64,000 bases of DNA from Phaeobacter sp. QD34_24 (GTDB lineage: Bacteria; Pseudomonadota; Alphaproteobacteria; Rhodobacterales; Rhodobacteraceae). The stretch is taken from positions 145,880 to 209,879 of the forward strand of contig NZ_JARCJD010000005.1 in assembly GCF_028890115.1 (NCBI RefSeq), read 5' to 3'. Positions within the stretch are counted from its first letter, which is position 1. Each line of letters opens with the position of its first letter. Shown here piece by piece: positions 389 through 43,470 of the stretch. The notes below the pieces were generated by a model. The model worked only from the letters and a program-made list of their open reading frames with translations, had not been told where the DNA came from and ran no database searches. The translations under genes were made by a program, and so were the position numbers.

Positions 389-544
389 GCTGCTTCTCCG
401 TAACGATTGAATGCAGGGGCTGCGCACCTCTGCCGGGCCAGAATGAGCCATCCAGCCCAGTACTAGACATGTTAGATCGGTTTTGCTATACGGCCACCTC
501 CTGCAAATCCTTGCAACTCAACTTAGAAAGGTGGTGAAAACCAC

Positions 545-751
545 ATGCAGGTTAGTGTTCGTGACAACAATGTCGATCAGGCGCTTCGTGCCCTGAAGAA
601 AAAGCTGCAGCGCGAAGGTGTGTTCCGCGAGATGAAGCTCAAGCAACATTTCGAGAAACCCTCCGAGAAGAAAGCGCGCGAGAAGGCTGAAGCGATTCGT
701 CGTGCCCGTAAACTGGCGCGTAAGAAAGCACAGCGCGAAGGTCTCCTCTAA
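545..751 (+). CDS. rpsU: 30S ribosomal protein S21
   Basis: 68 aa: [68 protein letters not shown], a canonical S21. Confidence 0.95.
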
Positions 752-786
752 GATCTTCCTCCGGTTTTTTCTGGATGCTTTTGACG

Positions 787-820
787 ACCCCCGCGGCCCT
801 GCCCGGGGGTTTGTCGTTTC
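787..820 (+). terminator. Candidate rho-independent terminator after rpsU
   Basis: Stem ACCCCCG/CGGGGGT (787-793 / 804-810) followed by TTTGTCGTTT. Stem boundaries are approximate. Confidence 0.35.
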
Positions 821-1218
821 TAGAGCCTACAATTTACGACTCCATAACGATATTCACTAGGCAATCACTAAACTTATGCGTGTATCGTGCGCGGCAAGTT
901 GCTATAGTCGGCTCAAGGGCCACTGAAACCTCGGATCGTCTTGGCTCATGGTCCTTTTGCCGAAGCTGGAACAATCGGCATATCCCCGGAGGTGGTACCG
1001 CCCTCCCCCAAACTGGCGTCGGCCTTGCTTCCTGCACCCAAGGCCCGTGACCCCTCCGGGGAAATCAACACAGATGGCCTTGGCGCCGAATGGTATCGGA
1101 GCCTATGGGTCTTCAGGTATTGCCCCTGCAGATTCTCCTCTGCATCTCTGCCCCGCTTGCACCGCACAGATGAGACCCAAACCGTCATCAAATGTCATAG
1201 TCTGCGATCACCCGGCCC

Positions 1219-2997: not shown

Positions 2998-3007
2998 CAT
3001 CGGCGAA

Positions 3008-3098
3008 ACGCGCCCGCCGCGCGCCCGCGCGGCGCCGGGCCCAACGGAGGCGACACAGCCCATGGGCTGTGCCAGATCGGGCGGGAGCCGCCCCCTGC
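3008..3098 (+). repeat. REP-like structured intergenic repeat, copy R1
   Basis: GC hairpin ending GCGCGGCGCC, then GGGCCCAACGGAGG, then variable palindrome CACAGCCCATGGGCTGTG, then CAGATCGGGCGGGAGCCGCC. Lies between the convergent MarR and PPK2 genes. See finding 1. Confidence 0.6.
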
Positions 3099-3112: not shown

Positions 3113-4030
3113 TCAGTAGATCTTTGGCACGTATAGCTCGTCCGGCAGGAACCGGCGCTCATAGTCGGGATTATACTCCCGATCCGGCAGGGTCACCTTC
3201 TCCTGGGGCACATCCTCATAGGGGACCTTGGTCAAGAGGTGCTCGATACAGTTGAGCCGCTCGCGCTTCTTGTCGTTGCCCTCGACGATATACCAGGGCG
3301 CCTCGGGGATATTGGTGCGTTCCAGCATATCCTCCTTGGCCTTGGTGTACTGTTCCCAGCGGATGCGGCTTTCCAGGTCCATGGGCGACAGTTTCCACTG
3401 TTTCATCGGATCGTGGATGCGCATCATGAATCGCAGCTGCTGCTCTTCGTCGGTGATCGAGAACCAGTATTTCAGCAGGATGATCCCCGACCGCACCAGC
3501 ATACGCTCGAATTCCGGAACGTCCTGGAAGAATTGTTCGACCTGATCGTCGCTGGCAAAGCCCATGACCCGCTCCACCCCGGCGCGGTTGTACCAGGAGC
3601 GGTCAAACAGCACGATTTCACCGGCCGCGGGCAGGTGCGGCACGTAACGCTGGAAATACCACTGGCTTTGTTCACGCCGCGACGGAGCCGGCAGCGCCAC
3701 GACGCGGGCCACCCGCGGGTTCAGGCGCTGAGTGATCCGCTTGATCACGCCCCCCTTGCCGGCACTGTCACGCCCCTCGAACAGGATGCAGACCTTGGCG
3801 CCGCTGTGCTGCACCCAGTCCTGCAGCTTGATCAGCTCTGCCTGCAGGCGCAGCAGGTTGCGGAAATAGACTTTGCGGTCCAGCATCTCGGGGTGTTGCG
3901 ACCGGTAGATCTTGCGCAGCTCCATCGACAGCATGGGCTCGGCAAATTCGATCTCGAAATCCTCGTCCAGCGTGTCCTGAAGCTCGGCATCCAGCCAATC
4001 GAATGAATCAGGGGTGGTATCGCTGGTCAC
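3113..4030 (-). CDS. ppk2: Polyphosphate kinase 2 (polyphosphate:nucleotide phosphotransferase)
   Basis: 305 aa. Walker-A-like GRDSAGKGG plus the PPK2 family blocks (FDRSWYNR..., lid region). Confidence 0.9.
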   Translation of the reverse strand: MTSDTTPDSFDWLDAELQDTLDEDFEIEFAEPMLSMELRKIYRSQHPEMLDRKVYFRNLLRLQAELIKLQDWVQHSGAKVCILFEGRDSAGKGGVIKRITQRLNPRVARVVALPAPSRREQSQWYFQRYVPHLPAAGEIVLFDRSWYNRAGVERVMGFASDDQVEQFFQDVPEFERMLVRSGIILLKYWFSITDEEQQLRFMMRIHDPMKQWKLSPMDLESRIRWEQYTKAKEDMLERTNIPEAPWYIVEGNDKKRERLNCIEHLLTKVPYEDVPQEKVTLPDREYNPDYERRFLPDELYVPKIY

Positions 4031-4249
4031 GGTGGAGCTCCTTCACTCAAAATATCTCTGTTCTGGCCGCTTTAGAGCAGGGATGTGATTGTTTGATGTC
4101 AGATCTGCATCTGTTGCCGGACCGCAGGGATTTTGCCGCCACGCGGTCACGGTCCTCTCTACAAGCGGCAAATCGCCTGACCAGAAGGGAATCGAAAATC
4201 AGGACCGCCTGCAAGGGCAAAACAGCCCTTCGGCGGCCATATGCCTGTC

Positions 4250-5839
4250 TCAGCCGCGCGCCGCTGCCAAAATCATGTCTGATGCCTTTTCCGCGATCAT
4301 GATCGTCGGCGCATTGGTGTTGCCGCTGGTGATCGTCGGCATGACGCTGGCATCCACGACACGCAGGCCAGCGATGCCACGTAGACGCAGCTCGGGATCC
4401 AGAGGCGCGCTCTCCTCCGCCCCCATATGCACCGTGCAGGTGGGGTGGAAGATCGTCGTGCCGATATCCCCCGCCGCACGCACCAGATCCTGTTCATCGT
4501 CGGACACAAGGCCCGGCTTCATCTCTTCCGGCGCGTATCCCTGCATCGGCGCCTGCGCCATGATCGCCCGTGCCTGACGGATCGCGGCTACGGCCACCTG
4601 CCGGTCTCCTTCGGTCGACAGGTAGTTCGGCTGAATGCTCGGCGCCGCCAATGGGTCGGCAGAGGTGATCTCCACCCGCCCCCGACTTTCGGGACGCAGG
4701 TTGCAGACGCTGGCCGTCAGCCCCGGAAAATCATGCAGGGGCTGACCAAAGGCCTCCAGCGTCAGGGGCTGCACGTGGTATTCCAGATCCGGGGTCTCCA
4801 GATCGGGCCGCGAGCGGGAAAAGGCGCCCAGCTGGCTTGGCGCCATGGACATCGGGCCAGACCGTTTCAGCGCATATTCAAGGCCGATCTTCGCCTTGCC
4901 GACCAGGGAATTGGCCAGCGTGTTGAGAGTATGGGCCCCGCTCAGGCGCCAGGCACAGCGCAGTTGCAGGTGATCCTGCAGATTGGCGCCGACCTGCGGC
5001 ATATCCCGCAGCACCTCGATCCCGTGCGCCTGCAACAGCGCGCCGGGACCCAGGCCCGACAGTTGCAGGATCTGCGGGCTGTTGACAGCGCCTGCCGACA
5101 GGATGACCTCACCGCGGGCACGGGCAGTGCGGATCTCTTCCCCTTTTTGATACTCGACCCCGACGGCGCGCCCCTCCTCGATCAGGATGCGGCGGGTATG
5201 CGCCTGAGTTTCGACCTTCAGCCCCTGCCCGGTCGCCGTGCGCAGGAAGGCCTTGGCCGTATTCATCCGCCAGCCAGAGCGTTGATTGACCCGGAAATAG
5301 CCGACGCCCTCGTTATTGCCAGTGTTGAAATCCGTGACCTTGGGCAGCCCCCAGGCAGAGGCCGCCTCCATCCAGTCATCCAGCACGTCCCAGTGCAGAC
5401 GCTGGTTCTCGACGCGCCATTCGCCACCTGCCCCGTGCAGATCAGAGGGGCCTTCGACATAGTCCTCGGACTTCTTGAAATAGGGCAGAACATCGTCCCA
5501 GCCCCAGCCTGCAAGGCCGCGCTGCCGCCAACCGTCATAATCGGCGGCTTGCCCACGCAGGTACAGCATTCCGTTGATCGAGGAACAGCCGCCCAGCACC
5601 TTGCCCCGCGGATAGATCAAGGCGCGCCCATTCAGGCCCGGATCGGCCTCGGTGCGATACATCCAGTCGGTGCGCGGGTTGTTGATGCAGTAGAGATAGC
5701 CCATCGGGATATGGACCCAATGGTAATTGTCACGTCCCCCGGCCTCCAACAGCAGTACGCGCTGCCCGCCCTCGCTGAGCCGCTTGGCCAGGACACAGCC
5801 CGCACTCCCGGCGCCCACGATGATGTAATCAAATTCCAT
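4250..5839 (-). CDS. GMC-family FAD oxidoreductase (choline-dehydrogenase-like)
   Basis: N-terminal MEFDYIIVGAGSAGCVLAKRLSE (ADP-binding beta-alpha-beta fold), the GMC signature blocks and a C-terminal HxxGTxxMG-like region. The track ORF starts 7 codons earlier at a TTG; the ATG at MEFDY is preferred. Confidence 0.85.
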   Translation of the reverse strand: MEFDYIIVGAGSAGCVLAKRLSEGGQRVLLLEAGGRDNYHWVHIPMGYLYCINNPRTDWMYRTEADPGLNGRALIYPRGKVLGGCSSINGMLYLRGQAADYDGWRQRGLAGWGWDDVLPYFKKSEDYVEGPSDLHGAGGEWRVENQRLHWDVLDDWMEAASAWGLPKVTDFNTGNNEGVGYFRVNQRSGWRMNTAKAFLRTATGQGLKVETQAHTRRILIEEGRAVGVEYQKGEEIRTARARGEVILSAGAVNSPQILQLSGLGPGALLQAHGIEVLRDMPQVGANLQDHLQLRCAWRLSGAHTLNTLANSLVGKAKIGLEYALKRSGPMSMAPSQLGAFSRSRPDLETPDLEYHVQPLTLEAFGQPLHDFPGLTASVCNLRPESRGRVEITSADPLAAPSIQPNYLSTEGDRQVAVAAIRQARAIMAQAPMQGYAPEEMKPGLVSDDEQDLVRAAGDIGTTIFHPTCTVHMGAEESAPLDPELRLRGIAGLRVVDASVMPTITSGNTNAPTIMIAEKASDMILAAARG

Positions 5840-5987
5840 GGTCCAGCCCCCGTCGTTCAATATCCCTTCTCTTGAAGCAGATACGACTCGGAATTGTAAG
5901 ACAAATAAAAGTCTGCCGCACCCGACCAGATCACCAAGCCCTCCCGCGCCCGCAGATGCGCCGACTGCGTCGCCACCTCTTGGCGGC

Positions 5988-6076
5988 CTTGGGCGTGGCA
6001 GCGCGCAGCGCGCGCTGCCACGCCCAACGGGAGGTGGTCTTTACAAAAAAAAAGGCCGCCGACGGGCGGGAGTACC
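5988..6076 (+). repeat. REP-like structured intergenic repeat, copy R2
   Basis: Perfect 15-bp hairpin GGCGTGGCAGCGCGC-agc-GCGCGCTGCCACGCC, then CAACGGGAGG, then an A9 tract, then GGCCGCCGACGGGCGGGAGTACC. Lies between the GMC start and the lrp stop. Confidence 0.55.
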
Positions 6077-6692: not shown

Positions 6693-7811
6693 ATGAAAAT
6701 CGGATGCCCGACTGAAATCAAACCCCAGGAATTTCGCGTCGGCATGACACCCGATGCCGCCCATGAAGCCATTGCCCACGGTCACGAGGTGCTGATCCAG
6801 ACCGGCGCCGGTGCGGGCGCGGGCTTTAGCGACGCCGATTACGCCGCCGCCGGAGCCCAGCTGGTCGATACGGCCGAAGAGATTTTCGCCACCGCCGAGA
6901 TGATCGTGAAGGTCAAGGAACCCCAGGCGGGTGAGCGCAAGATGCTGCGCGAGGGCCAGCTTCTGTTCACCTACCTGCACCTTGCTCCCGACCCGGAGCA
7001 GACCCGCGATCTTCTGGCTTCGGGCTGCACCGCAATCGCCTATGAAACCGTCACCGACAGCCGCGGCGGCCTGCCGCTCCTGGCCCCCATGTCCGAGGTT
7101 GCGGGCCGTCTTGCGCCGCAGGTCGGCGCCTGGACCCTGCAAAAGGCCAACGGCGGGCGCGGCGTTCTGATGGGCGGCGTTCCCGGTGTTGCTCCCGCCA
7201 AGGTCGTCGTGATCGGTGGCGGCGTGGTTGGCACCCATGCAGCCCGCATTGCGGCAGGCATGGGCGGCGACGTCACGGTTCTGGACCGCTCCCTGCATCG
7301 CCTGAAATACCTGGATGACGTTTTCGGCAGCACCTTCCGCACCCAGTATTCGACAGCCGCCGCCACCGCAGAACTGGTGCGCGAGGCCGATCTGGTGGTC
7401 GGCGCGGTTCTGGTGCCGGGTGCTGCGGCACCCAAGCTGATCTCGCGGGCGCAGCTGAACGAAATGAAACCCGGCGCGGCGCTGGTTGATGTGGCGATCG
7501 ACCAGGGGGGATGTTTTGAAACCTCCAAAGCCACCACCCATGCCGATCCGATCTACGAGGTCGATGGCGTCATGCATTACTGCGTCGCCAATATGCCCGG
7601 CGCCGTCGCCCGCACTTCGACCCAGGCCCTAGGCAATGCCACGCTCCCCTTCCTGCTGGCGCTTGCCGACAAGGGCTGGAAACAGGCCTGCCAGGATGAC
7701 CCGCATCTTCTGGATGGGTTGAACGTCCACGCGGGCCAGTTGACCTACTATGCCGTCGGCAAGGCGCTGGGGATCGATGTCGTCTCTCCCGCTCTGGCGC
7801 TGAGGTCCTGA
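6693..7811 (+). CDS. ald: Alanine dehydrogenase
   Basis: [45 protein letters not shown]... with the NAD-binding motif [19 protein letters not shown] at 6681-6686. Start trimmed from the track ORF. Confidence 0.9.
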
Positions 7812-7842
7812 TCTCCGCGACCCCGCCAACCCGCCATGATTT

Positions 7843-7880
7843 GCGCCGCCTCCCTCCCCTTGGGGCGGCGCTTTTCATTT
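7843..7880 (+). terminator. Rho-independent terminator of ald
   Basis: GCGCCGCC-(tccctCCCCttGGGG)-GGCGGCGC followed by TTTTCATTT. Confidence 0.6.
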
Positions 7881-8055
7881 CGGGTCCAGGCCCCAATCCG
7901 CCACATGCCCATTCGGCGTTGCGTCAGGGAGTACAGAATTCCCCCTGACTTTTATGAAAATCAAATACAAGACGCGACATCTCGGAGTAGAATACAACTC
8001 CAGACCTCAATGAAATATCTTCATGGGGCAACGCGCGAAACAAGGGGCATTCGAC

Positions 8056-9505: not shown

Positions 9506-9554
9506 ATTCCACTGCATCCTTGTGGACATGGCAACCGTTCAGAAATGGCGCAAC

Positions 9555-9625
9555 CGCGCCGAGCGCCCGCGCGGCGCCCGGCCCAAGGCTGTAATCTGTC
9601 GCCAAAGGCGCAGGTTCAGGGGCGG
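9555..9625 (+). repeat. REP-like repeat, copy R3
   Basis: GCGCGGCGCCCGGCCCAAGG ... GGTTCAGGGGCGGGAGCACTCC. Forms an inverted pair with R3'. Confidence 0.5.
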
Positions 9626-12347: not shown

Positions 12348-14744
12348 TCAGCCGCGCAGGCTGCCGCCAGTGGCCTTGGTCACCTTGGCAATGATCTTCT
12401 CGCTCACCGCCTCGATGTCCTTTTCCTTCAGCGTCTTGTCCACGGGCTGCAGGCGCACTGTGATGGCCAGGGATTTCTTGCCCTCGCCCAGGCTGCCACC
12501 GATGAATTCGTCAAAGACGCGCACATCCTCGATCAGGGCCTTGTCGGCACCGGCTGCGGCATTGACCAGGGTCAGCGCCTCGACGCCCTCATCCACCACA
12601 AAGGCAAAGTCACGCTCGACCGCCTGCAGGTCGCTGATCGCCAATGCGGCGCGGGTGGCCCCCGCATTGCGCGGCAGCGGCACCTCGTCGGGCCAGATGG
12701 TGAAGCCCACCGCCGGACCCTTGACGCCCATTTCGCTCAGCACCTTGGGATGCAGCTCGCCAAAGACGCCCAGCACCTTTTTCGGCCCCAGGCAGATCTT
12801 GCCGTGGCGGCCCGGATGCCACCACCCCTGCGCGCCGCGCAGGATCTGAACCTTGGCCGGGGCAGCGATGGCGGCCAGAACCGCCTCGATATCGGCCTTG
12901 GCATCGAATGTGTCCACGGGACGCGAGGCGCCATGCACATCCTTGGCACCGGTGCGTCCGACCAAGAGACCAGAGATCAGGTTGTGCTGCTCCCCCGGCT
13001 CCCCGCCATGAAAGGCCGGGCCGACTTCGAACAGAGCCAGGTCCATATAGCCGCGCGCCTGGTTGCGGGCGGCGGCCTGCAACAATCCCGGCAGCAGGGC
13101 GGGACGCATATGGGACATCTCGGAGGAGATCGGATTGGCCAGCATGGTTGCATCGTCACCGCCACCGAACAGCGTGGCCGAGGCCTTGTCGATGAAGGTG
13201 TAGCTGACGATTTCATTGTAGCCGAGGCTGGCCGCGGTGCGCCGGGCCATCTGTTGGCGGCGCTGCTGCGGGGTCATAACCGGTTTCGGAATGCCCGGCG
13301 TCAGACGCTTGAGCGGCTTGCCTTCCAGTTTCGTCAGCGAGGCGATACGGGCGACCTCTTCCACCAGATCGGCCTCGCCCTGAACATCGGGGCGCCAGCT
13401 GGGCACATGGGCCATGTTGCCCTCAAGCCGGAAGCCAAGGCGGGTCAGGGTCTGGCGCTGATCGCTTTCGGGGATATCCATGCCGACCAGCGACTGCACT
13501 CGGCTTGCGTCCAGCTTGTAGGCGCGCGAATGATCCGGCACGTCGCCTGCGATCACCACTTCAGACGGCTCACCGCCACAGAGGTCGAGGATCATCTGGG
13601 TGGCGCGATGCAGCCCTTCCAGGGTGAATTCCGGATCCACGCCGCGTTCGAACCGATAGCGCGCATCCGAGTTGATCTTGAGCGCGCGGCCGGTGGTCGC
13701 GATCTGCACGTGATCCCAGAAGGCGCTTTCGAGGAAGACATCGACGGTCTCCTCGGTGCAGCCGGTTTCCTCGCCGCCCATGATGCCGGCGATGCTTTCG
13801 GGGCCATTGGCGTCCGAAATCACCATCTGGCCCGCGCCAAGGGTGTATTCCTTCTCATCCAGCGCCAGCAGGGTCTCGCCGCCCTTGGCGCGATGAACCC
13901 GCAGATCGCCCGTCACCTTGGCTGCGTCAAAGACGTGCAGCGGGCGGTTCTGGTCGAAGGTGAAGAAGTTGGTGATATCCACCAGCGCCGAAATCGGGCG
14001 CAAGCCGATGGCGGTCAGCCGATCCTGCAGCCACTGCGGGCTGGGGCCATTCTTGACGCCCTTGATCAGGCGGCCGGTGAACAGCGGGCAGCCGTCCAGC
14101 GTGTCTTCGTCGATGGTGACCTTGATCGGGCTTTCGAAATCGCCGGGGATCGCCTCGTATTCGCGGGTTTTCAGCGTGCCCAGACCACGGGCCGCCAGAT
14201 CGCGGGCAATGCCGTAGACGCCCAGCGCATCGGGGCGGTTCGGGGTGATGGCAATCTCGATCATCGGATCGACCTTGGAGGGGTCGTTTTCCGCCAGCCA
14301 GTCGATCAGCCGGTCGCCCACCTCGCCCGAAGGCAGTTCCACGATGCCGTCGTGATCCTCGCCCAGCTCCAGCTCGCGCCAGGAGGCCATCATGCCGTGG
14401 CTTTCGACGCCGCGGATCTTGCCCACCGACAGGGTGATATCAAGGCCGGGCACATAGTCGCCGGGTTTGCACAGAACCACGGTGATGCCTTCGCGCGCAT
14501 TGGGGGCGCCGCAGACGATCTGCTTTTCGCCCTCGTTGGTCATCACGCGGCAGACACGCAGGCGGTCGGCATCGGGGTGCTGCTCGGCGCCCACGACCTT
14601 GGCCAGGGTAAAGCCTTTCAGCGCATCGGCCGGGTTCACGATCTCTTCGACCTCGAGGCCGAGATCGGTGAGGGTTTCGGCGATCTCCGCGACAGAGGCA
14701 TCGATGTCGAGGTGGTCTTTCAGCCAGGAGAGGGTGAATTTCAT
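12348..14744 (-). CDS. pheT: Phenylalanine--tRNA ligase beta subunit
   Basis: 798 aa: MKFTLSWLKDHLDIDASVAEIAETLTDLGLEVEEI... with tRNA-binding, B3/B4, B5 and FDX-ACB domain order. Confidence 0.95.
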   Translation of the reverse strand: MKFTLSWLKDHLDIDASVAEIAETLTDLGLEVEEIVNPADALKGFTLAKVVGAEQHPDADRLRVCRVMTNEGEKQIVCGAPNAREGITVVLCKPGDYVPGLDITLSVGKIRGVESHGMMASWRELELGEDHDGIVELPSGEVGDRLIDWLAENDPSKVDPMIEIAITPNRPDALGVYGIARDLAARGLGTLKTREYEAIPGDFESPIKVTIDEDTLDGCPLFTGRLIKGVKNGPSPQWLQDRLTAIGLRPISALVDITNFFTFDQNRPLHVFDAAKVTGDLRVHRAKGGETLLALDEKEYTLGAGQMVISDANGPESIAGIMGGEETGCTEETVDVFLESAFWDHVQIATTGRALKINSDARYRFERGVDPEFTLEGLHRATQMILDLCGGEPSEVVIAGDVPDHSRAYKLDASRVQSLVGMDIPESDQRQTLTRLGFRLEGNMAHVPSWRPDVQGEADLVEEVARIASLTKLEGKPLKRLTPGIPKPVMTPQQRRQQMARRTAASLGYNEIVSYTFIDKASATLFGGGDDATMLANPISSEMSHMRPALLPGLLQAAARNQARGYMDLALFEVGPAFHGGEPGEQHNLISGLLVGRTGAKDVHGASRPVDTFDAKADIEAVLAAIAAPAKVQILRGAQGWWHPGRHGKICLGPKKVLGVFGELHPKVLSEMGVKGPAVGFTIWPDEVPLPRNAGATRAALAISDLQAVERDFAFVVDEGVEALTLVNAAAGADKALIEDVRVFDEFIGGSLGEGKKSLAITVRLQPVDKTLKEKDIEAVSEKIIAKVTKATGGSLRG

Positions 14745-14894
14745 GTCTCAGCGCCCTTTTGGCAGATGAATGCGGTTCGAACAGGCAATGGCAAAGATTG
14801 CCCGGTGTTTCAAGGGCCGGAACGCGTTCCAATAAACAGTGCCTGCCTACAGGAGAAGTATTACAACGGTTGTGGTCTGCCGGACAAAAGGCAC

Positions 14895-14975
14895 GAGGCC
14901 GCCCGGGTGGGCGCAACGCGCCCGCCATGGGGGCGGGCGGGCGCGTGCCGAGCCGCAAGCGGCCCGGTCGAACTA
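14895..14975 (+). repeat. Degenerate REP-like repeat, copy R4
   Basis: GGGCGCAACGCGCCCGCC-atgg-GGGCGGGCGGGCGCG hairpin region, loosely related to the family. Lies between the pheT start and the orphan gene stop. Confidence 0.3.
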
Positions 14976-15395
14976 TTCGAACCGAAGGAACCTCAAATCA
15001 ACGTCATGTGTTTCGAGACCAAGCTCGTTCCGAAGCTCATTACGTAGTGCAATCAGCACCGGCTTAATATCGGCATGACCAGCATTCGCCACAAAGCCAC
15101 CAATGCTCTCATGCGCCGCCCGGCAAACATCTTCTGAACCAAACAGCTGAATATCTGCCAATGCCCCTTCCATGTTTTCGCGTAGTTGCTTCGCTTGCTC
15201 GTCGTCTGACGGTTTTCGTTCAACACACGCCTCCAATCGACGATAGGCATCAATCAAGAAATCCACATTGCGTGCACGCTTCTCGGAAATCAGTTCTTTG
15301 CGGATTGAAGTTTTGAAAACAATCAAAGATCCAATAATGGCAAAAAGCGGGGGAACAAAGAGGTTAAGCAGCGTAATGAGTGTATCAGAATCCAT
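14973..15395 (-). CDS. Orphan hypothetical membrane-anchored protein with atypical low GC, inserted between pheS and pheT
   Basis: 140 aa from MDSDTLITLLNLFVPPLFAIIGSLIVFKTSIRKE...: one N-terminal TM helix plus a helical soluble domain. GGGGAAGGTG RBS. Visibly AT-richer (~47% GC) than the flanking pheS/pheT (>62%). No recognised family. Confidence 0.5.
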   Translation of the reverse strand: MDSDTLITLLNLFVPPLFAIIGSLIVFKTSIRKELISEKRARNVDFLIDAYRRLEACVERKPSDDEQAKQLRENMEGALADIQLFGSEDVCRAAHESIGGFVANAGHADIKPVLIALRNELRNELGLETHDVDLRFLRFE

Positions 15396-15469
15396 AGCAC
15401 CTTCCCCAAAAAGCAAAAAGGGCACTCTTAGCGAGCACCCCCTTATCAATTCCGCGTGTTATGTGTGTG

Positions 15470-16543
15470 TCAACGGCTGAGGCCGCCATGCAGGGCCGGC
15501 ACGTCAAGGCAGCTGAAGCCATAGTGGCGCAGCCAGCGCAGGTCGCTGTCAAAGAAGGCGCGCAGATCGGGGATGCCGTATTTCAGCATCGCCAGACGGT
15601 CGATCCCGATGCCGAAGGCAAAGCCCTGGTATACGTCGGGGTCGATCCCGCCGGCGGCGATCACCTTGGGATGCACCATGCCGGAGCCGAGGATCTCCAT
15701 CCAGTCGTCACCCTCGCCGATCTTCAGCTGGCCATTGTCCCAGGAACAGCGGATATCCACCTCGGCCGAAGGTTCGGTGAAGGGGAAGTGCGAGGCGCGG
15801 AAGCGCAGCTCCACGTCGTCCACCTCGAAGAAAGATTTGACGAATTCCTCCAGCACCCACTTGAGGTTCGCCATCGAGATGTCTTTGTCCAGCGCCAGGC
15901 CTTCGACCTGGTGGAACATCGGCGTATGGGTCTGGTCGTAGTCGGCACGGTAGACACCGCCGGGGCAGATCACCCGCAGGGGCGCGCCCATCTTTTCCAT
16001 CGACTGGATCTGCACAGGAGAGGTGTGGGTGCGCAGCACATGCGGCGGGCGATCATCGCCTTCCGCGCGGTGCATATAAAACGTGTCCATCTCGGCGCGG
16101 GCCGGGTGGTGGCCGGGGATATTCAGCGCGTCGAAGTTGTACCAGTCGGTCTCGATGCGCGATCCTTCGGCGACCGAAAAGCCGAGTTCGGCAAAGATCG
16201 CGGTCAGCTCTTCGCTGGCCTGGCTGATCGGATGCAGGCTGCCCTGGCGCTGGGGCCGGGTCGGCAGGGTCACATCCAGCCACTCGGTGCGCAGGCGCTC
16301 ATCCAGCGCGGCATCGGCGAGTGCCGCCTTCTTCGCGACAAGGGCCGAGTTGATCTCATCCTTCAGCGCATTGAGCGCCGGCCCCACGGTCTGGCGTTCC
16401 TCGGGCGTCATCTTGCCCAATTCGCGCATCTTCAGGGCCACCTCGCCCTTCTTGCCGACGGCGGCGAGGCGGATCGCCTCCAGCGCGTCCTCGTCCTGGG
16501 CATCGGCAATCTGCCCCAGATATTTTGCCTTAAGATCGTCCAT
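15470..16543 (-). CDS. pheS: Phenylalanine--tRNA ligase alpha subunit
   Basis: 357 aa; class II aaRS motifs ([17 protein letters not shown]..., GSGMVHP). Confidence 0.95.
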
Positions 16544-16742
16544 GACGGTCCCCTGAATTTTGCTTGCCTTCTGCTACCACACGCGCCGCCAAACGCAAGG
16601 GCGGCTGAGCCCCCTGCCCCATAGCAGGGCTGCATCCGTTGCGACAAAACCTGCCGTCCCGCCCCTCGATAGCTTGCAAGCGTGAGCCAGACGCCCCATC
16701 TTGGCGCCAAGATCCCAGATCATTTTTTCAGAGATTGATAGT

Positions 16743-17789
16743 ATGAGTAATCCCGTCACCCGCAAGCTGACCACGATCCTGGCCGCCGACGCCGAGCGCT
16801 ACAGCGCAGCGATGGAGGCCGATGAGGTAGCAACCTATGCCGCGCTCAAGGCGGCGCGAGCGGTATTCTTCAAACTGATCGACCGTCACGGTGGACGGGT
16901 TGCCAATACAGCGGGCGACGGGCTGATCGCCGATTTCCCTTCGGTTGTCGAAGCCACCCATTGCGCCATCGAGGTGCAGCAGGAACTGGCCGCCGAGCAT
17001 AGCCTGCTCAGGTTCCGCATCGGCATCCACCTAGGCGATGTGATCTGCGACGGGGATGACCTGCTGGGCGATGGCGTCAACCTGGCGTCGCGGCTGCAGA
17101 CCATGGCCGAACCCGGCGGCATCCTGATCTCGCGCCAGGTCTACGACCAGGTTCACAACAAGCTGACCATCGGGTTCGAGTACTTAGGCGAAAAATCCGC
17201 CAAGAACCTCCCCGAAGAGGTCTCGGTCTATCGGATCACCACGGCAGCTGCCACTGCGGACCGGTTTGAGAAGGTGAAACCCCAGGTCAGACCGGCCCAA
17301 GCCAACAAACCAGACCGCCCGGCACGACCCGAGAAGGTCGCGCATGTCTGGGATGGCGACCGGACAGACCAAGGGGCCCAGCCTGCCCCGACAGCCCCAT
17401 CTGAAGGGCGCTCTGCCGCGCAGTCGGCCCTGCAGGCCGCAAAAGAGGCTTTTGGCGGGCTGAAGACACCGACCCAGCGCCTATACCTCTTTGGCGTTGG
17501 CGGCGCCGTGCTGCTGAACCTGGTCACCGGAGGCCGTTTCTGGCCCGCCTGGCCGGTCCTCGCCCTTGCCCTGGTTTACGGGCAGATCAACGGCAACGGG
17601 GCATTGGGGTTCAAACCCTTCCTGTCCATTCCCGTTCGGATCTGGATCCTGGCTTTGTTCCTGATCTGCATCAACTTGATGACCACAGCCTTCCCCTGGG
17701 CGATCTTCCCTGTTGCGGCACTGGTGTTGGGCGGTCGGGTCATGGGCGGGCGAGGTGAGCCTGGTGCAGAACCCGAAGAACAGGCCTGA
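16743..17789 (+). CDS. Class III adenylate/guanylate cyclase domain protein with C-terminal transmembrane segment
   Basis: N-terminal CYC domain (ILAADAERYSAAMEADEVATYAALKAARAVFFKLIDRHGGRVANTAGDGLIADF...RIGIHLGDVI...GDGVNLASRLQ). A proline/alanine-rich linker follows. Two to three hydrophobic helices at the C-terminus. Start trimmed to MSNPVTRKL. Confidence 0.75.
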   Translation: MSNPVTRKLTTILAADAERYSAAMEADEVATYAALKAARAVFFKLIDRHGGRVANTAGDGLIADFPSVVEATHCAIEVQQELAAEHSLLRFRIGIHLGDVICDGDDLLGDGVNLASRLQTMAEPGGILISRQVYDQVHNKLTIGFEYLGEKSAKNLPEEVSVYRITTAAATADRFEKVKPQVRPAQANKPDRPARPEKVAHVWDGDRTDQGAQPAPTAPSEGRSAAQSALQAAKEAFGGLKTPTQRLYLFGVGGAVLLNLVTGGRFWPAWPVLALALVYGQINGNGALGFKPFLSIPVRIWILALFLICINLMTTAFPWAIFPVAALVLGGRVMGGRGEPGAEPEEQA

Positions 17790-40235: not shown

Positions 40236-40405
40236 CTTGACGCACGCATTAAAACAGACTCGCACAGGGCCCTTGAGGGGCAAAGCTGCCCCTTAAGGGC
40301 CATCTCGGCAAAAGGAAACGCCGCGCGTCAGCGCGGCGCCAGGCCCAACGGGAGAGGGGTAATCTGCAGATTGCCCCGATCCGGGCGGGAGCACCCCGCC
40401 CACGG
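40236..40405 (+). repeat. REP-like repeat, extended copy R5
   Basis: CCTTGACGC...TTGAGGGGCAAAGCTGCCCCTTAA (hairpin) ... CGCCGCGCgtcaGCGCGGCGCCAGGCCCAACGGGAG + palindrome GGGGTAATCTGCAGATTGCCCC + GATCCGGGCGGGAGCACCCCGCCC. Lies between the convergent GNAT and arsP genes. Confidence 0.6.
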
Positions 40406-43380: not shown

Positions 43381-43470
43381 CGCGGCAAAGCCTTGGGCGT
43401 GGCGCCGCGCAGGGCGCGGCGCCACGCCCAACGGGAGCAATGCATCTTGGATGCAGAGGCGACGGGCGGG
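43381..43470 (+). repeat. REP-like repeat, copy R6
   Basis: GGCGTGGCGCCGCGC-agg-GCGCGGCGCCACGCC (15-bp stem) + CAACGGGAGC + palindrome AATGCATCTTGGATGCAG + AGGCGACGGGCGGGAGCGCACC. Starts just after the tauR stop. Confidence 0.6.

What the first reader, a model, noticed from the sequence alone, without database searches (positions are those of the whole stretch)
14973..15395. Lower-GC orphan membrane-protein gene inserted between pheS and pheT
pheS (15470-16543) and pheT (12348-14744) are separated by ~725 nt. That space holds a 140-aa ORF on the same strand (MDSDTLITLLNLFVPPLFAIIGSLIVFKTSIRKE...) with a good RBS, one N-terminal TM helix and an uncharacterised helical domain. The segment 14975-15450 is visibly AT-richer (~47% GC by eye) than the >62% GC neighbours. 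A degenerate repeat copy (14895-14975) lies at its downstream boundary. The composition suggests a horizontally acquired gene lodged inside an essential, highly expressed aaRS operon. That is a location where selfish, immunity or abortive-infection-type small genes can hitch constitutive expression. No family is recognised.
Basis: partly seen in the sequence, partly recalled or inferred. Interest (0 to 1): 0.65.

Follow-up and report, generated by a model that had tools for sequence, protein, structure and literature searches.

The report
Foreign membrane-protein gene between pheS and pheT
A small, AT-rich gene for a membrane-anchored helical protein of unknown function was acquired horizontally between the two phenylalanyl-tRNA synthetase genes, at a junction that in related marine Roseobacter-group bacteria holds a different small foreign gene in almost every genus.

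Summary
A 140-aa ORF (14973-15395, minus strand) lies in the 725-nt pheS-pheT spacer. Its GC is 0.474 and GC3 0.450, against 0.636 and 0.779 for the window's genes. It is the lowest-GC stretch in the 64 kb.

It is a real gene but not an orphan. It belongs to an unnamed family of about 1,600 clusters (50% identity). Members share an N-terminal TM helix, a cytoplasmic four-helix bundle and the motifs FLIDAYRRLE, ADIQLFG and LRxxLRxEL. No Pfam, NCBIfam, PHROG, PADLOC or PDB match was found. Elsewhere, members are solitary, usually AT-richer than their flanks and have no fixed partner. Some are transposon or phage cargo.

None of 80 related genomes carries this gene. However, their pheS-pheT gap ranges from -4 to over 3,200 nt. 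In 47 of the 80 it holds low-GC small ORFs, and the ORFs directly after pheS fall into about 20 or more unrelated families. Many overlap the pheS stop and the pheT start by 4 nt. The gene is one occupant of a clade-wide hypervariable slot.

A conflict or defence role is a guess. A terminator-like hairpin between pheS and the ORF weakens the idea that it borrows strong constitutive expression.

The parts
15470..16543 (-). pheS, the phenylalanyl-tRNA synthetase alpha subunit and upstream boundary of the slot
   Evidence: One search gives the ORF. One search shows 80-95% protein identity to PheS of 80 Roseobacter-group genomes. GC3 is 0.838.
15406..15444 (-). Terminator-like hairpin (12-pair stem, 5-nt loop) with a U-rich tail, between the pheS stop and the ORF's ribosome-binding site
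   Evidence: Consensus scan. RNA fold: the hairpin is in both the MFE and centroid structures. For the 96-nt context dG is -25.6 kcal/mol and z is only -1.65, so the support is weak. Different hairpin/T-run elements follow pheS in L011 and L017.
15400..15407 (-). Shine-Dalgarno-like GGGGAAGG, ending 4 nt before the ATG
   Evidence: Read directly from the sequence.
14973..15395 (-). 140-aa gene (stop codon included) for a TM-anchored four-helix-bundle protein of an unnamed family
   Evidence: One search gives the ORF. One search finds 35 proteins at E<=0.01: one identical entry and 34 distant homologs. One search shows all 14 invariant family residues are present. One search finds 1,633 clusters. 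One search gives the AF2 model, pLDDT 92.3.
15315..15380 (-). Codons for the single transmembrane helix (residues 6-27)
   Evidence: KD(19) is 2.27. The N-terminal flank has net charge -2. Residues 28-42 carry six K/R, which predicts N-out, C-in.
14976..15460 (.). Low-GC tract, taken as the inserted or replaced segment (the ORF plus its 74-nt leader)
   Evidence: Homology to relatives stops at the pheS stop and resumes only after the ORF stop.
14890..14967 (.). GC-rich REP-like palindromic element directly downstream of the ORF stop
   Evidence: It is 95% identical over 67 nt to the element downstream of a different cassette in Pseudophaeobacter profundi (L009), and is also present in L011, L017 and L039.
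14745..14820 (-). Conserved pheT leader containing AATCTTTGCCATTGCCT. It may be a pheT promoter or translation-initiation region; that role is inferred.
   Evidence: the block is conserved in the window, L009, L011 and L017 and in many other close genera.
12348..14744 (-). pheT, the phenylalanyl-tRNA synthetase beta subunit and downstream boundary of the slot

Best explanation
Shown. The ORF is an intact protein-coding gene. Its product has one N-terminal transmembrane helix (residues 6-27). That helix continues into a long helix which packs with three more helices as a four-helix bundle.

Shown. The protein belongs to a large, unnamed and uncharacterised family. Its members are scattered, single-copy and usually AT-richer than their surroundings. 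They have no constant neighbour and sometimes ride on transposons or phages.

Shown. The gene and its 74-nt leader are compositionally foreign. They lie between conserved flanks (the pheS stop on one side, a REP element plus the pheT leader on the other). In related genera these same flanks enclose entirely different small low-GC genes. The gene is therefore one horizontally acquired occupant of a clade-wide hypervariable slot at the pheS|pheT junction.

Inferred. The charge distribution places the helix bundle in the cytoplasm.

Inferred. The ancestral state was pheS and pheT overlapping by ATGA. Cassettes entered exactly at that junction. They are exchanged between lineages by recombination anchored in the very conserved flanking synthetase genes. 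pheT-start remnants left behind after some cassettes point to this.

Inferred. In this genome the gene is transcribed from the pheS promoter by read-through of a weak terminator-like hairpin, and pheT keeps its own conserved leader.

Guess (about 0.3 on its own). The protein acts at the inner face of the membrane in a conflict role, such as phage exclusion or abortive infection, rather than in phenylalanine charging.
For: A real gene in a family:
- 35 proteins at E<=0.01. One is the identical entry from Phaeobacter sp. QD34_3 and 34 are distant homologs at 32-43% identity.
- 14 invariant columns, all kept in the window copy.
- 1,633 clusters at E<=1e-3, 1,241 at 1e-10 and 267 at 1e-30.
- 837 clusters, all named 'hypothetical' except one JGI 'PilN' label, and none with a Pfam domain.

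Fold:
- pLDDT 92.3, with helices 3-58, 65-85, 88-103 and 111-124.

Foreign origin:
- GC3 is 0.450 against 0.779 +/- 0.036.
- no tblastn homolog in 80 relatives.
- homology breaks at the pheS stop and resumes at the REP element.

Family behaviour elsewhere:
- the family gene is AT-richer than its flanks in 52 of 59 loci.
- 112 Pfam families among 150 neighbours, none seen more than three times.
- varied contexts.
- Tn3 passenger on a plasmid.
- antisense insert within phage replication modules.

The slot:
- spacer -4 to 3,211 nt, median 1,094 nt.
- 51 low-GC ORFs in 47 of 80 loci, 41 on the pheS strand.
- the ORFs directly after pheS fall into about 20 or more unrelated low-GC families, with at least six types within Ruegeria alone.
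- YrhK, DUF2513 and a DarT-like ORF; the rest have no family.
- ATGA/GTGA coupling to pheS and pheT.
- pheT 5' duplicates directly after the cassette in L049, L055 and L073.

Same protein architecture in other slot occupants:
- the L072-type cassette gives helices 3-54, 59-79, 82-102 and 110-135.
Against: - The function is unsupported by any direct evidence. There is no hit in PADLOC, Pfam, NCBIfam, PHROGs or the PDB (sequence and fold).
- Only about 5 of 150 neighbouring proteins of family members match defence models.
- Only 1 of 51 slot ORFs is clearly a defence or toxin type (DarT).
- No recombination tract is visible in pheS or pheT against species-level relatives, so the mode of entry is inferred rather than shown.
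- The terminator call rests on a consensus scan whose count was no higher than in shuffled sequence (2 found against 1.8 expected), and on a fold with z of -1.65.
- Sequence homology between this family and the other TM-plus-helical slot proteins is not established. hhalign gives 61% and 30% probability, and the best HMM E-value is 0.035.
Confidence: 0.55

Rival explanations
1. A neutral or selfish passenger. The gene arrived by chance recombination into a permissive intergenic site. It gives the host no benefit and persists only because it is harmless.
For: - The exact protein is known from one genome only (a one-member cluster on one contig).
- Family clusters are tiny.
- There is no partner gene.
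- A hairpin upstream may keep expression low.
Against: - The window copy keeps all 14 invariant and the near-invariant family residues, with an intact reading frame and a good ribosome-binding site.
- The family's conservation across phyla implies purifying selection on a function.
- The slot is occupied in most relatives, mostly on the pheS strand (41 of 51) and often translationally coupled. That is not expected for random junk.
Confidence: 0.2
2. A membrane-associated accessory protein with a physiological role unrelated to conflict, for example an envelope-stress or membrane-organisation adaptor.
For: - Most neighbours of family members are ordinary housekeeping genes, not defence or mobile genes.
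- The fold is a generic four-helix bundle, like many adaptor or sensor modules.
- Other slot occupants include YrhK-type small membrane proteins.
Against: - The distribution is sporadic and strain-specific, with lower GC than the host in 52 of 59 loci.
- The gene is carried on a Tn3-family transposon and in phage contigs.
- Cassettes in the slot turn over rapidly. This pattern is more typical of conflict genes than of physiological ones.
Confidence: 0.2
3. A lineage-specific accessory or regulatory subunit of phenylalanyl-tRNA synthetase, or a vertically inherited operon member.
For: Only its position between pheS and pheT on the same strand.
Against: - It is absent from all 80 relatives.
- None of 89 other family loci has pheS or pheT nearby.
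- Its codon usage is foreign.
- It is predicted to be anchored in the membrane, while PheRS is cytosolic (established knowledge).
Confidence: 0.03
4. Not a gene, only a chance ORF in an AT-rich spacer.
For: None beyond its small size.
Against: The full-length profile match scores E = 4e-34. The motifs are invariant. The fold prediction is confident.
Confidence: 0.01

Closest known systems
Core-gene-flanked integration or defence hotspots, e.g. Pseudomonas aeruginosa core defence hotspot cDHS1, which is bounded by pheT (PMC10250203; bioRxiv 10.1101/2023.03.30.534895)
   Same: Conserved essential genes form the boundaries. The content between them varies greatly among relatives. The cargo is compositionally foreign. 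No recombinase lies inside the site.
   Different: - The P. aeruginosa hotspot lies beside the pheST region (the papers describe pheT, ihfA, a MerR regulator, tRNA-Pro and a histidine kinase around it). It is tens of kb long and full of recognisable defence systems.
- Here the site is inside the operon, exactly at the pheS|pheT junction.
- Here the cargo is mostly one small ORF of 60-220 aa, often overlapping both flanking genes by 4 nt.
- Only 1 of 51 cargo ORFs matches a known defence or toxin model.
Integron gene cassettes
   Same: Single promoterless small ORFs of very diverse and mostly unknown function. They are all in one orientation, at a fixed site, and expressed from an upstream promoter.
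   Different: - No attC-like element is shared among cassettes.
- In several loci the cassette's stop overlaps the pheT start, leaving no room for an attC.
- There is one cassette per site rather than an array.
- The element downstream of the window ORF is a genome-wide REP-like palindrome.
Small single-TM phage 'moron' or superinfection-exclusion proteins such as lactococcal Sie2009 (recalled from memory, a lead only)
   Same: About 140-170 aa, with one N-terminal TM helix, AT-rich relative to their surroundings, a stand-alone gene, and sometimes phage-borne.
   Different: There is no sequence or fold match to any phage protein. The window copy is not in a prophage. No exclusion activity has been tested.
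The other TM-plus-helical occupants of the same slot (L072/L044/L049 type; L009/L011/L017/L024 type)
   Same: - Same position, strand and low GC.
- Same predicted layout: a TM helix running into a long helix, two helices joined by a tight turn, a loop, and a fourth helix.
- A similar basic juxtamembrane stretch and an 'ERRxxYxxFI' segment that aligns with 'KRRxxxxxFLIDAY'.
   Different: - Sequence homology is not established (hhalign 61% and 30%; HMM E >= 0.035).
- The three members of the L072 type whose context was examined all lie directly after pheS.
- The window's family is cosmopolitan and was never found near pheST elsewhere.

Membership tests
Unnamed family defined here (alignment A1) | Length about 125-170 aa with a single N-terminal TM helix | tested here: met
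Unnamed family defined here (alignment A1) | Motifs FLIDAYRRLE, ADIQLFG and LRxxLRxEL (14 invariant columns) | tested here: met
   the window copy has L47 A50 Y51 R52 L54 D81 Q83 L84 G86 L117 R118 L121 R122 E124. The profile score is E = 4e-34.
Any curated family (Pfam, NCBIfam, PHROGs, PADLOC) | Score at or above the family threshold | tested here: not met
   The best Pfam hit has E = 0.017, far below the curated cut-off.
Integron gene cassette | An attC recombination site downstream of the ORF, shared in structure among cassettes | tested here: not met
   The downstream element is a REP-like palindrome also found at unrelated window sites. In L044, L063, L074, L075 and L180 the cassette's stop overlaps the pheT start, so there is no room for an attC.
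Integron gene cassette | An adjacent intI integrase and attI site | not tested
   The slot is bounded directly by pheS and pheT. The rest of the window was not screened for tyrosine recombinases.
Core-gene-flanked defence hotspot (cDHS1-like) | Conserved core genes at both boundaries, with variable content among relatives | tested here: met
Core-gene-flanked defence hotspot (cDHS1-like) | Cargo made of recognisable anti-phage systems | tested here: not met
   PADLOC hits among 51 slot ORFs: one DarT and one weak '1TM effector'. The window ORF has none.
Toxin-antitoxin or two-gene abortive-infection module | A conserved adjacent partner gene | tested here: not met
   No recurrent neighbour in about 60 family loci. 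There is no second ORF in the window spacer.
HEPN-type four-helix-bundle nucleases | A conserved Rx4-6H motif | tested here: not met
   No His is among the invariant or near-invariant columns.
Sie-type superinfection-exclusion proteins | A small protein with an N-terminal TM anchor | tested here: met
Sie-type superinfection-exclusion proteins | Prophage location and a block of phage DNA entry | not testable with these tools
   The window copy is not in a prophage. The activity needs experiments.
Other TM-plus-helical proteins of the pheS|pheT slot | The same secondary-structure topology | tested here: met
   The second model has only pLDDT 77, from a 3-sequence alignment.
Other TM-plus-helical proteins of the pheS|pheT slot | Detectable sequence homology | tested here: inconclusive
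   hhalign probability is 61% (E 8e-5) and 30%. The best HMM E-value is 0.035.

The most novel reading that the evidence does not exclude
The pheS|pheT junction of Roseobacter-group bacteria may be a dedicated, previously undescribed 'expression socket'. Single small genes from many unrelated low-GC families would be swapped in and out of it. They are mostly membrane proteins of the dark proteome, and include a lone DarT-like toxin domain. Many are translationally coupled to both subunits of an essential enzyme. The exchange would use recombination anchored in the conserved synthetase genes, possibly through the roughly 4-kb fragments moved by gene transfer agents (from memory, not tested). 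The occupants, the window's protein among them, would be fast-evolving conflict or exclusion factors.
Probability: 0.3. Interest if true: 0.8.

Novelty: new variant of a known kind. Interest (0 to 1): 0.55.

Why it matters
The gene on its own is one more uncharacterised accessory gene. Three things make it worth more attention.

1. It gives a name-worthy handle on a family that no database describes. The family has about 1,600 clusters, a confident fold model and sharp motifs.

2. It exposes a hypervariable site inside an essential two-gene operon. That site is conserved in position across a whole marine clade, and its occupants have almost no known function. It is a natural place to look for new small conflict or membrane proteins.

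3. Many cassettes overlap both pheS and pheT by 4 nt. This raises testable questions about how insertion between two subunits of an essential enzyme is tolerated, and how it affects subunit stoichiometry.

Tried and rejected
Protein family and fold searches, all uninformative:
- Pfam, PADLOC, PHROGs and NCBIfam on the ORF and on all 35 aligned family members gave nothing above noise.
- The afdb50 library was unavailable.
- Longer family members were checked for fused domains. Only one carries an S1 RNA-binding domain (P0177), which is too isolated to use.

Nucleic-acid features:
- Rfam on the region and on the whole window found no RNA element in the spacer.
- A search for terminal inverted or direct repeats around the insert found only short, chance-level matches plus the REP hairpin.
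- The sigma-70 promoter scan found none in 14600-16800.

Links to relatives and to other slot occupants:
- Remnants of pheS 3' or pheT 5' ends were sought inside the window spacer. None were found. They do occur in L049, L055 and L073.
- Sliding identity in pheS and pheT against nine close relatives showed no recombination tract.
- Homology between the window family and the other TM-plus-helical slot proteins was tested with an HMM and with hhalign. The results are suggestive but not significant.

Neighbourhood and collection searches:
- Neighbourhood enrichment around family members found no recurrent partner and only about 3% defence-model hits.
- Isolated phage genomes gave no hit. Plasmids gave one hit.

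Literature: no report of a pheS|pheT slot in roseobacters was found.

Full report
**1. The observation**

pheS is 15470-16543 (-) and pheT is 12348-14744 (-), separated by a 725-nt spacer. On the same strand lies an ORF at 14973-15395, 140 aa, starting MDSDTLIT.

- The run GGGGAAGG (15400-15407) ends 4 nt before the ATG.
- Alignment with homologs places the N-terminus at this ATG, not at the upstream TTG.

The composition is strongly deviant.

| Measure | ORF | 62 long ORFs of the window |
|---|---|---|
| GC | 0.474 | 0.636 +/- 0.022 |
| GC3 | 0.450 | 0.779 +/- 0.036 |
| CAI-like index | 0.423 | 0.670 +/- 0.077 (minimum 0.485) |

- pheS and pheT have GC3 of 0.838 and 0.822.
- The lowest-GC 420-nt window of the whole 64 kb lies within the ORF.
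- Residues 6-27 form a clear TM segment (KD19 = 2.27). The N-terminal flank is acidic, and six K/R lie in residues 28-42, which predicts N-out, C-in.
- The 'degenerate repeat' at about 14890-14967 is a GC-rich REP-like palindrome. Looser copies occur at 3002, 9544 and 40306.

**2. The protein**

No curated library recognises it: Pfam, PADLOC, PHROGs and NCBIfam all gave nothing. It is nevertheless not an orphan.

- A word-indexed search found 35 proteins at E<=0.01. One is the identical entry, 'hypothetical protein PXK00_05795, Phaeobacter sp. QD34_3', a one-member cluster. The other 34 are homologs at 32-43% identity and nearly the same length.
- Their alignment has 14 invariant columns grouped in three motifs: FLIDAYRRLE, ADIQLFG and LRxxLRxEL. 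The window copy keeps all of them.
- A profile search of 1.84 billion cluster representatives found 1,633 clusters at E<=1e-3 and 267 at E<=1e-30. Nearly all are 125-190 aa with a single domain.
- A second profile search found 837 clusters (90% identity), all but one labelled 'hypothetical', with no Pfam domain and only 1-6 members each.
- AlphaFold2 with this alignment gives a confident model (pLDDT 92.3, pTM 0.74). Helix 3-58 is the TM segment running on into the cytoplasm. Helices 65-85, 88-103 and 111-124 follow, giving a membrane-anchored four-helix bundle.
- Fold searches return only generic helix bundles.

**3. How family members sit in other genomes**

- In 59 loci with enough flank, the family gene is AT-richer than its surroundings in 52, by 0.063 on average.
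- The 150 nearest neighbour proteins fall into 112 Pfam families, none seen more than three times. About five match defence models.
- Individual contexts include the following:
  - a large serine recombinase (L001), and an excisionase-like HTH plus a transposase (L003);
  - a prophage-like stretch (L093);
  - duplicated DUF559 genes with an AAA_21/DUF4276 pair (L088);
  - a DUF4258 toxin-antitoxin islet next to smc (L186);
  - plain housekeeping genes (L182).
- On a Dongshaea marina plasmid the homolog lies directly downstream of the tnpA and tnpR genes of a Tn3-family transposon, the position of a passenger gene.
- Four IMG/VR contigs carry it antisense within phage replication modules.
- No isolated phage genome has it.

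The family is therefore a solitary, mobile, sparsely distributed accessory gene with no partner.

**4. The locus in relatives: the main new finding**

PheS was used to fetch the locus from 80 Roseobacter-group genomes, one per species, with PheS 80-95% identical to the window's.

- None has a homolog of the 140-aa protein.
- The distance from the pheS stop to the pheT start ranges from -4 nt (an ATGA overlap, in two Yoonia MAGs) to 3,211 nt, with a median of 1,094 nt. In 12 loci pheT is not reached within the flank.
- In 47 of the 80 genomes the region just after pheS holds one or more ORFs with GC at least 0.07 below that of pheS. There are 51 such ORFs, and 41 are on the pheS strand.
- The ORFs directly downstream of pheS cluster into about 20 or more unrelated low-GC families. 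Ruegeria alone has at least six types.
- Only a few are recognisable: YrhK (4), DUF2513 (3), a lone DarT-like domain (1) and an RTX-repeat ORF (1). The rest are dark.
- Seventeen of the 53 first ORFs start 4 nt inside pheS (ATGA/GTGA), and seven more start within 3 nt after the stop.
- In L044, L063, L074, L075 and L180 the cassette's stop also overlaps the pheT ATG, so the three genes are translationally chained.
- In L049, L055 and L073 a copy of the first 38-78 nt of pheT lies immediately after the cassette, ahead of further inserted genes and the real pheT. This is best read as a scar from a donor in which the cassette directly abutted pheT.
- The two homologs found for one slot family (L072 type) again lie directly after pheS.

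**5. The window's version of the slot**

- Against relatives, DNA homology stops at the pheS stop. It resumes about 5 nt after the ORF's stop, at the REP element, which is 95% identical over 67 nt to the element in Pseudophaeobacter profundi. There it follows a different, 209-aa low-GC ORF.
- Homology continues through a conserved pheT leader. The swapped unit is therefore the ORF plus its 74-nt leader.
- That leader contains a terminator-like hairpin with a U-run (15444-15416, tail to 15406), immediately before the ribosome-binding site. The statistical support is weak. Analogous hairpin/T-run elements of different sequence follow pheS in L011 and L017.
- No sigma-70-like promoter was found.
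- I infer expression by attenuated read-through from pheS, with pheT served by its own conserved leader.
- No recombination tract is visible in pheS or pheT at this phylogenetic distance.

**6. Relation to other slot occupants**

About a quarter of the genomes carry slot proteins with the same design: an N-terminal TM helix, a basic juxtamembrane stretch, then a helical domain of 100-150 aa.

- An AF2 model of the L072-type protein has helices 3-54, 59-79, 82-102 and 110-135. This is the same topology as the window protein, though the model has pLDDT 77 from a shallow alignment.
- Profile comparisons align the same segments but are not significant. hhalign gives 61% and 30% probability, and the best HMM E-value is 0.035.
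- The window protein is thus at least a structural analogue of the usual occupants. It is drawn from a cosmopolitan family that was never found near pheST elsewhere.

**7. Mechanism and function**

Shown:
- It is an intact gene from a conserved family.
- It encodes a TM-anchored helix bundle.
- It is compositionally foreign.
- It lies at a clade-wide variable junction.

Inferred:
- The bundle faces the cytoplasm.
- The gene entered by recombination anchored in the conserved synthetase genes.
- It is expressed by read-through.

Guessed:
- It has a conflict role at the membrane, such as phage exclusion or abortive infection.
- The guess rests on the sporadic, AT-rich, mobile-element-associated distribution, the rapid turnover of the slot, and the presence of a DarT-like toxin domain among occupants.
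- Direct defence signals are weak. A neutral passenger or a non-conflict membrane role remain serious rivals.

**8. Comparison with what is known**

- The nearest described phenomenon is the core-gene-flanked integration or defence hotspot. In P. aeruginosa such a hotspot is bounded by pheT (PMC10250203; bioRxiv 10.1101/2023.03.30.534895). It lies beside the operon rather than within it, and holds large recognisable systems.
- The slot resembles integrons in having one-way, promoterless, mostly unknown small cassettes. It lacks attC sites.
- Full-text searches found no report of a pheS|pheT slot in roseobacters.

**9. Verdict**

- The gene is a horizontally acquired member of an undescribed family, and a new variant of a known kind of phenomenon.
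- Most of the interest lies in the slot it reveals.

Noticed in passing
L008-L087 (pheS at about 4001-5074 of each locus): The pheS-pheT spacer varies from -4 to over 3,200 nt across 80 Roseobacter-group genomes. In 47 of them it holds low-GC small ORFs, and the ORFs directly after pheS fall into about 20 or more unrelated families.
   Followed up: yes
L049:5592-5628; L055:5674-5740; L073:5790-5898: Copies of the first 38-78 nt of pheT lie immediately after the low-GC cassette, well upstream of the real pheT. In L049 the copy overlaps the cassette's stop as ATGA. They look like recombination scars.
   Followed up: partly
L009:5205, L011:5332, L017:5325, L024:5071 (ORF starts): Four slot ORFs share a nearly identical N-terminal peptide (MASVEVMTACENVCRDFSWL) ahead of the TM helix, while the rest of each protein is far more divergent. 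This could be a conserved leader or a recombination breakpoint inside the ORF.
   Followed up: no
L043:5071-5592: A lone 173-aa DarT-like ADP-ribosyltransferase domain (Pfam E = 3e-17) overlaps the pheS stop in Sulfitobacter sp. F26204. No DarG-like antitoxin gene was noted next to it, but this was not checked specifically.
   Followed up: no
e.g. L056:2458-3258, L087:5221-6024, and ORFs of about 262-283 aa just upstream of pheT in many loci: An ORF of about 262-283 aa with normal GC lies just before pheT in many genomes. I took it to be one conserved gene and, from its sequence by eye, a secreted esterase resembling PHB depolymerase; neither point was tested (only L056 and L087 were shown to be homologous). 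The junction may therefore also hold an older resident gene.
   Followed up: no
L021: The record is titled 'Nocardioides marinus strain DP1N28-1' but carries a Roseobacter-type pheS (94% identical to the window's) and pheT (89%). The assembly is probably mislabelled or contaminated.
   Followed up: no
window 5986-6033 and 43390-43437; also 3002-3041, 9544-9583, 14910-14949, 40306-40345: Families of GC-rich palindromic REP-like intergenic repeats. One pair is 90% identical over 48 nt.
   Followed up: partly
window 441-1200: This is the second low-GC patch of the window. It contains rpsU (545-751, +), recognised by eye from its translation as ribosomal protein S21, followed by about 450 nt with no convincing ORF and no Rfam or tRNA hit.
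   Followed up: partly
L088:3559-3945 and 7566-7952: Two DUF559 (Vsr-like endonuclease) genes bracket a 3.6-kb segment that holds a family member. An AAA_21/DUF4276 pair lies next to it. This may be a small mobile or defence islet.
   Followed up: no
L187 (Dongshaea marina plasmid NZ_CP028898, 47004-47408): A family homolog lies directly downstream of the tnpA and tnpR genes of a Tn3-family transposon, in the position of a passenger gene.
   Followed up: partly
P0177 (321 aa): One family member is fused to a C-terminal S1 RNA-binding domain (Pfam E = 1.5e-22). This is a single case and could be a gene-calling artefact.
   Followed up: no
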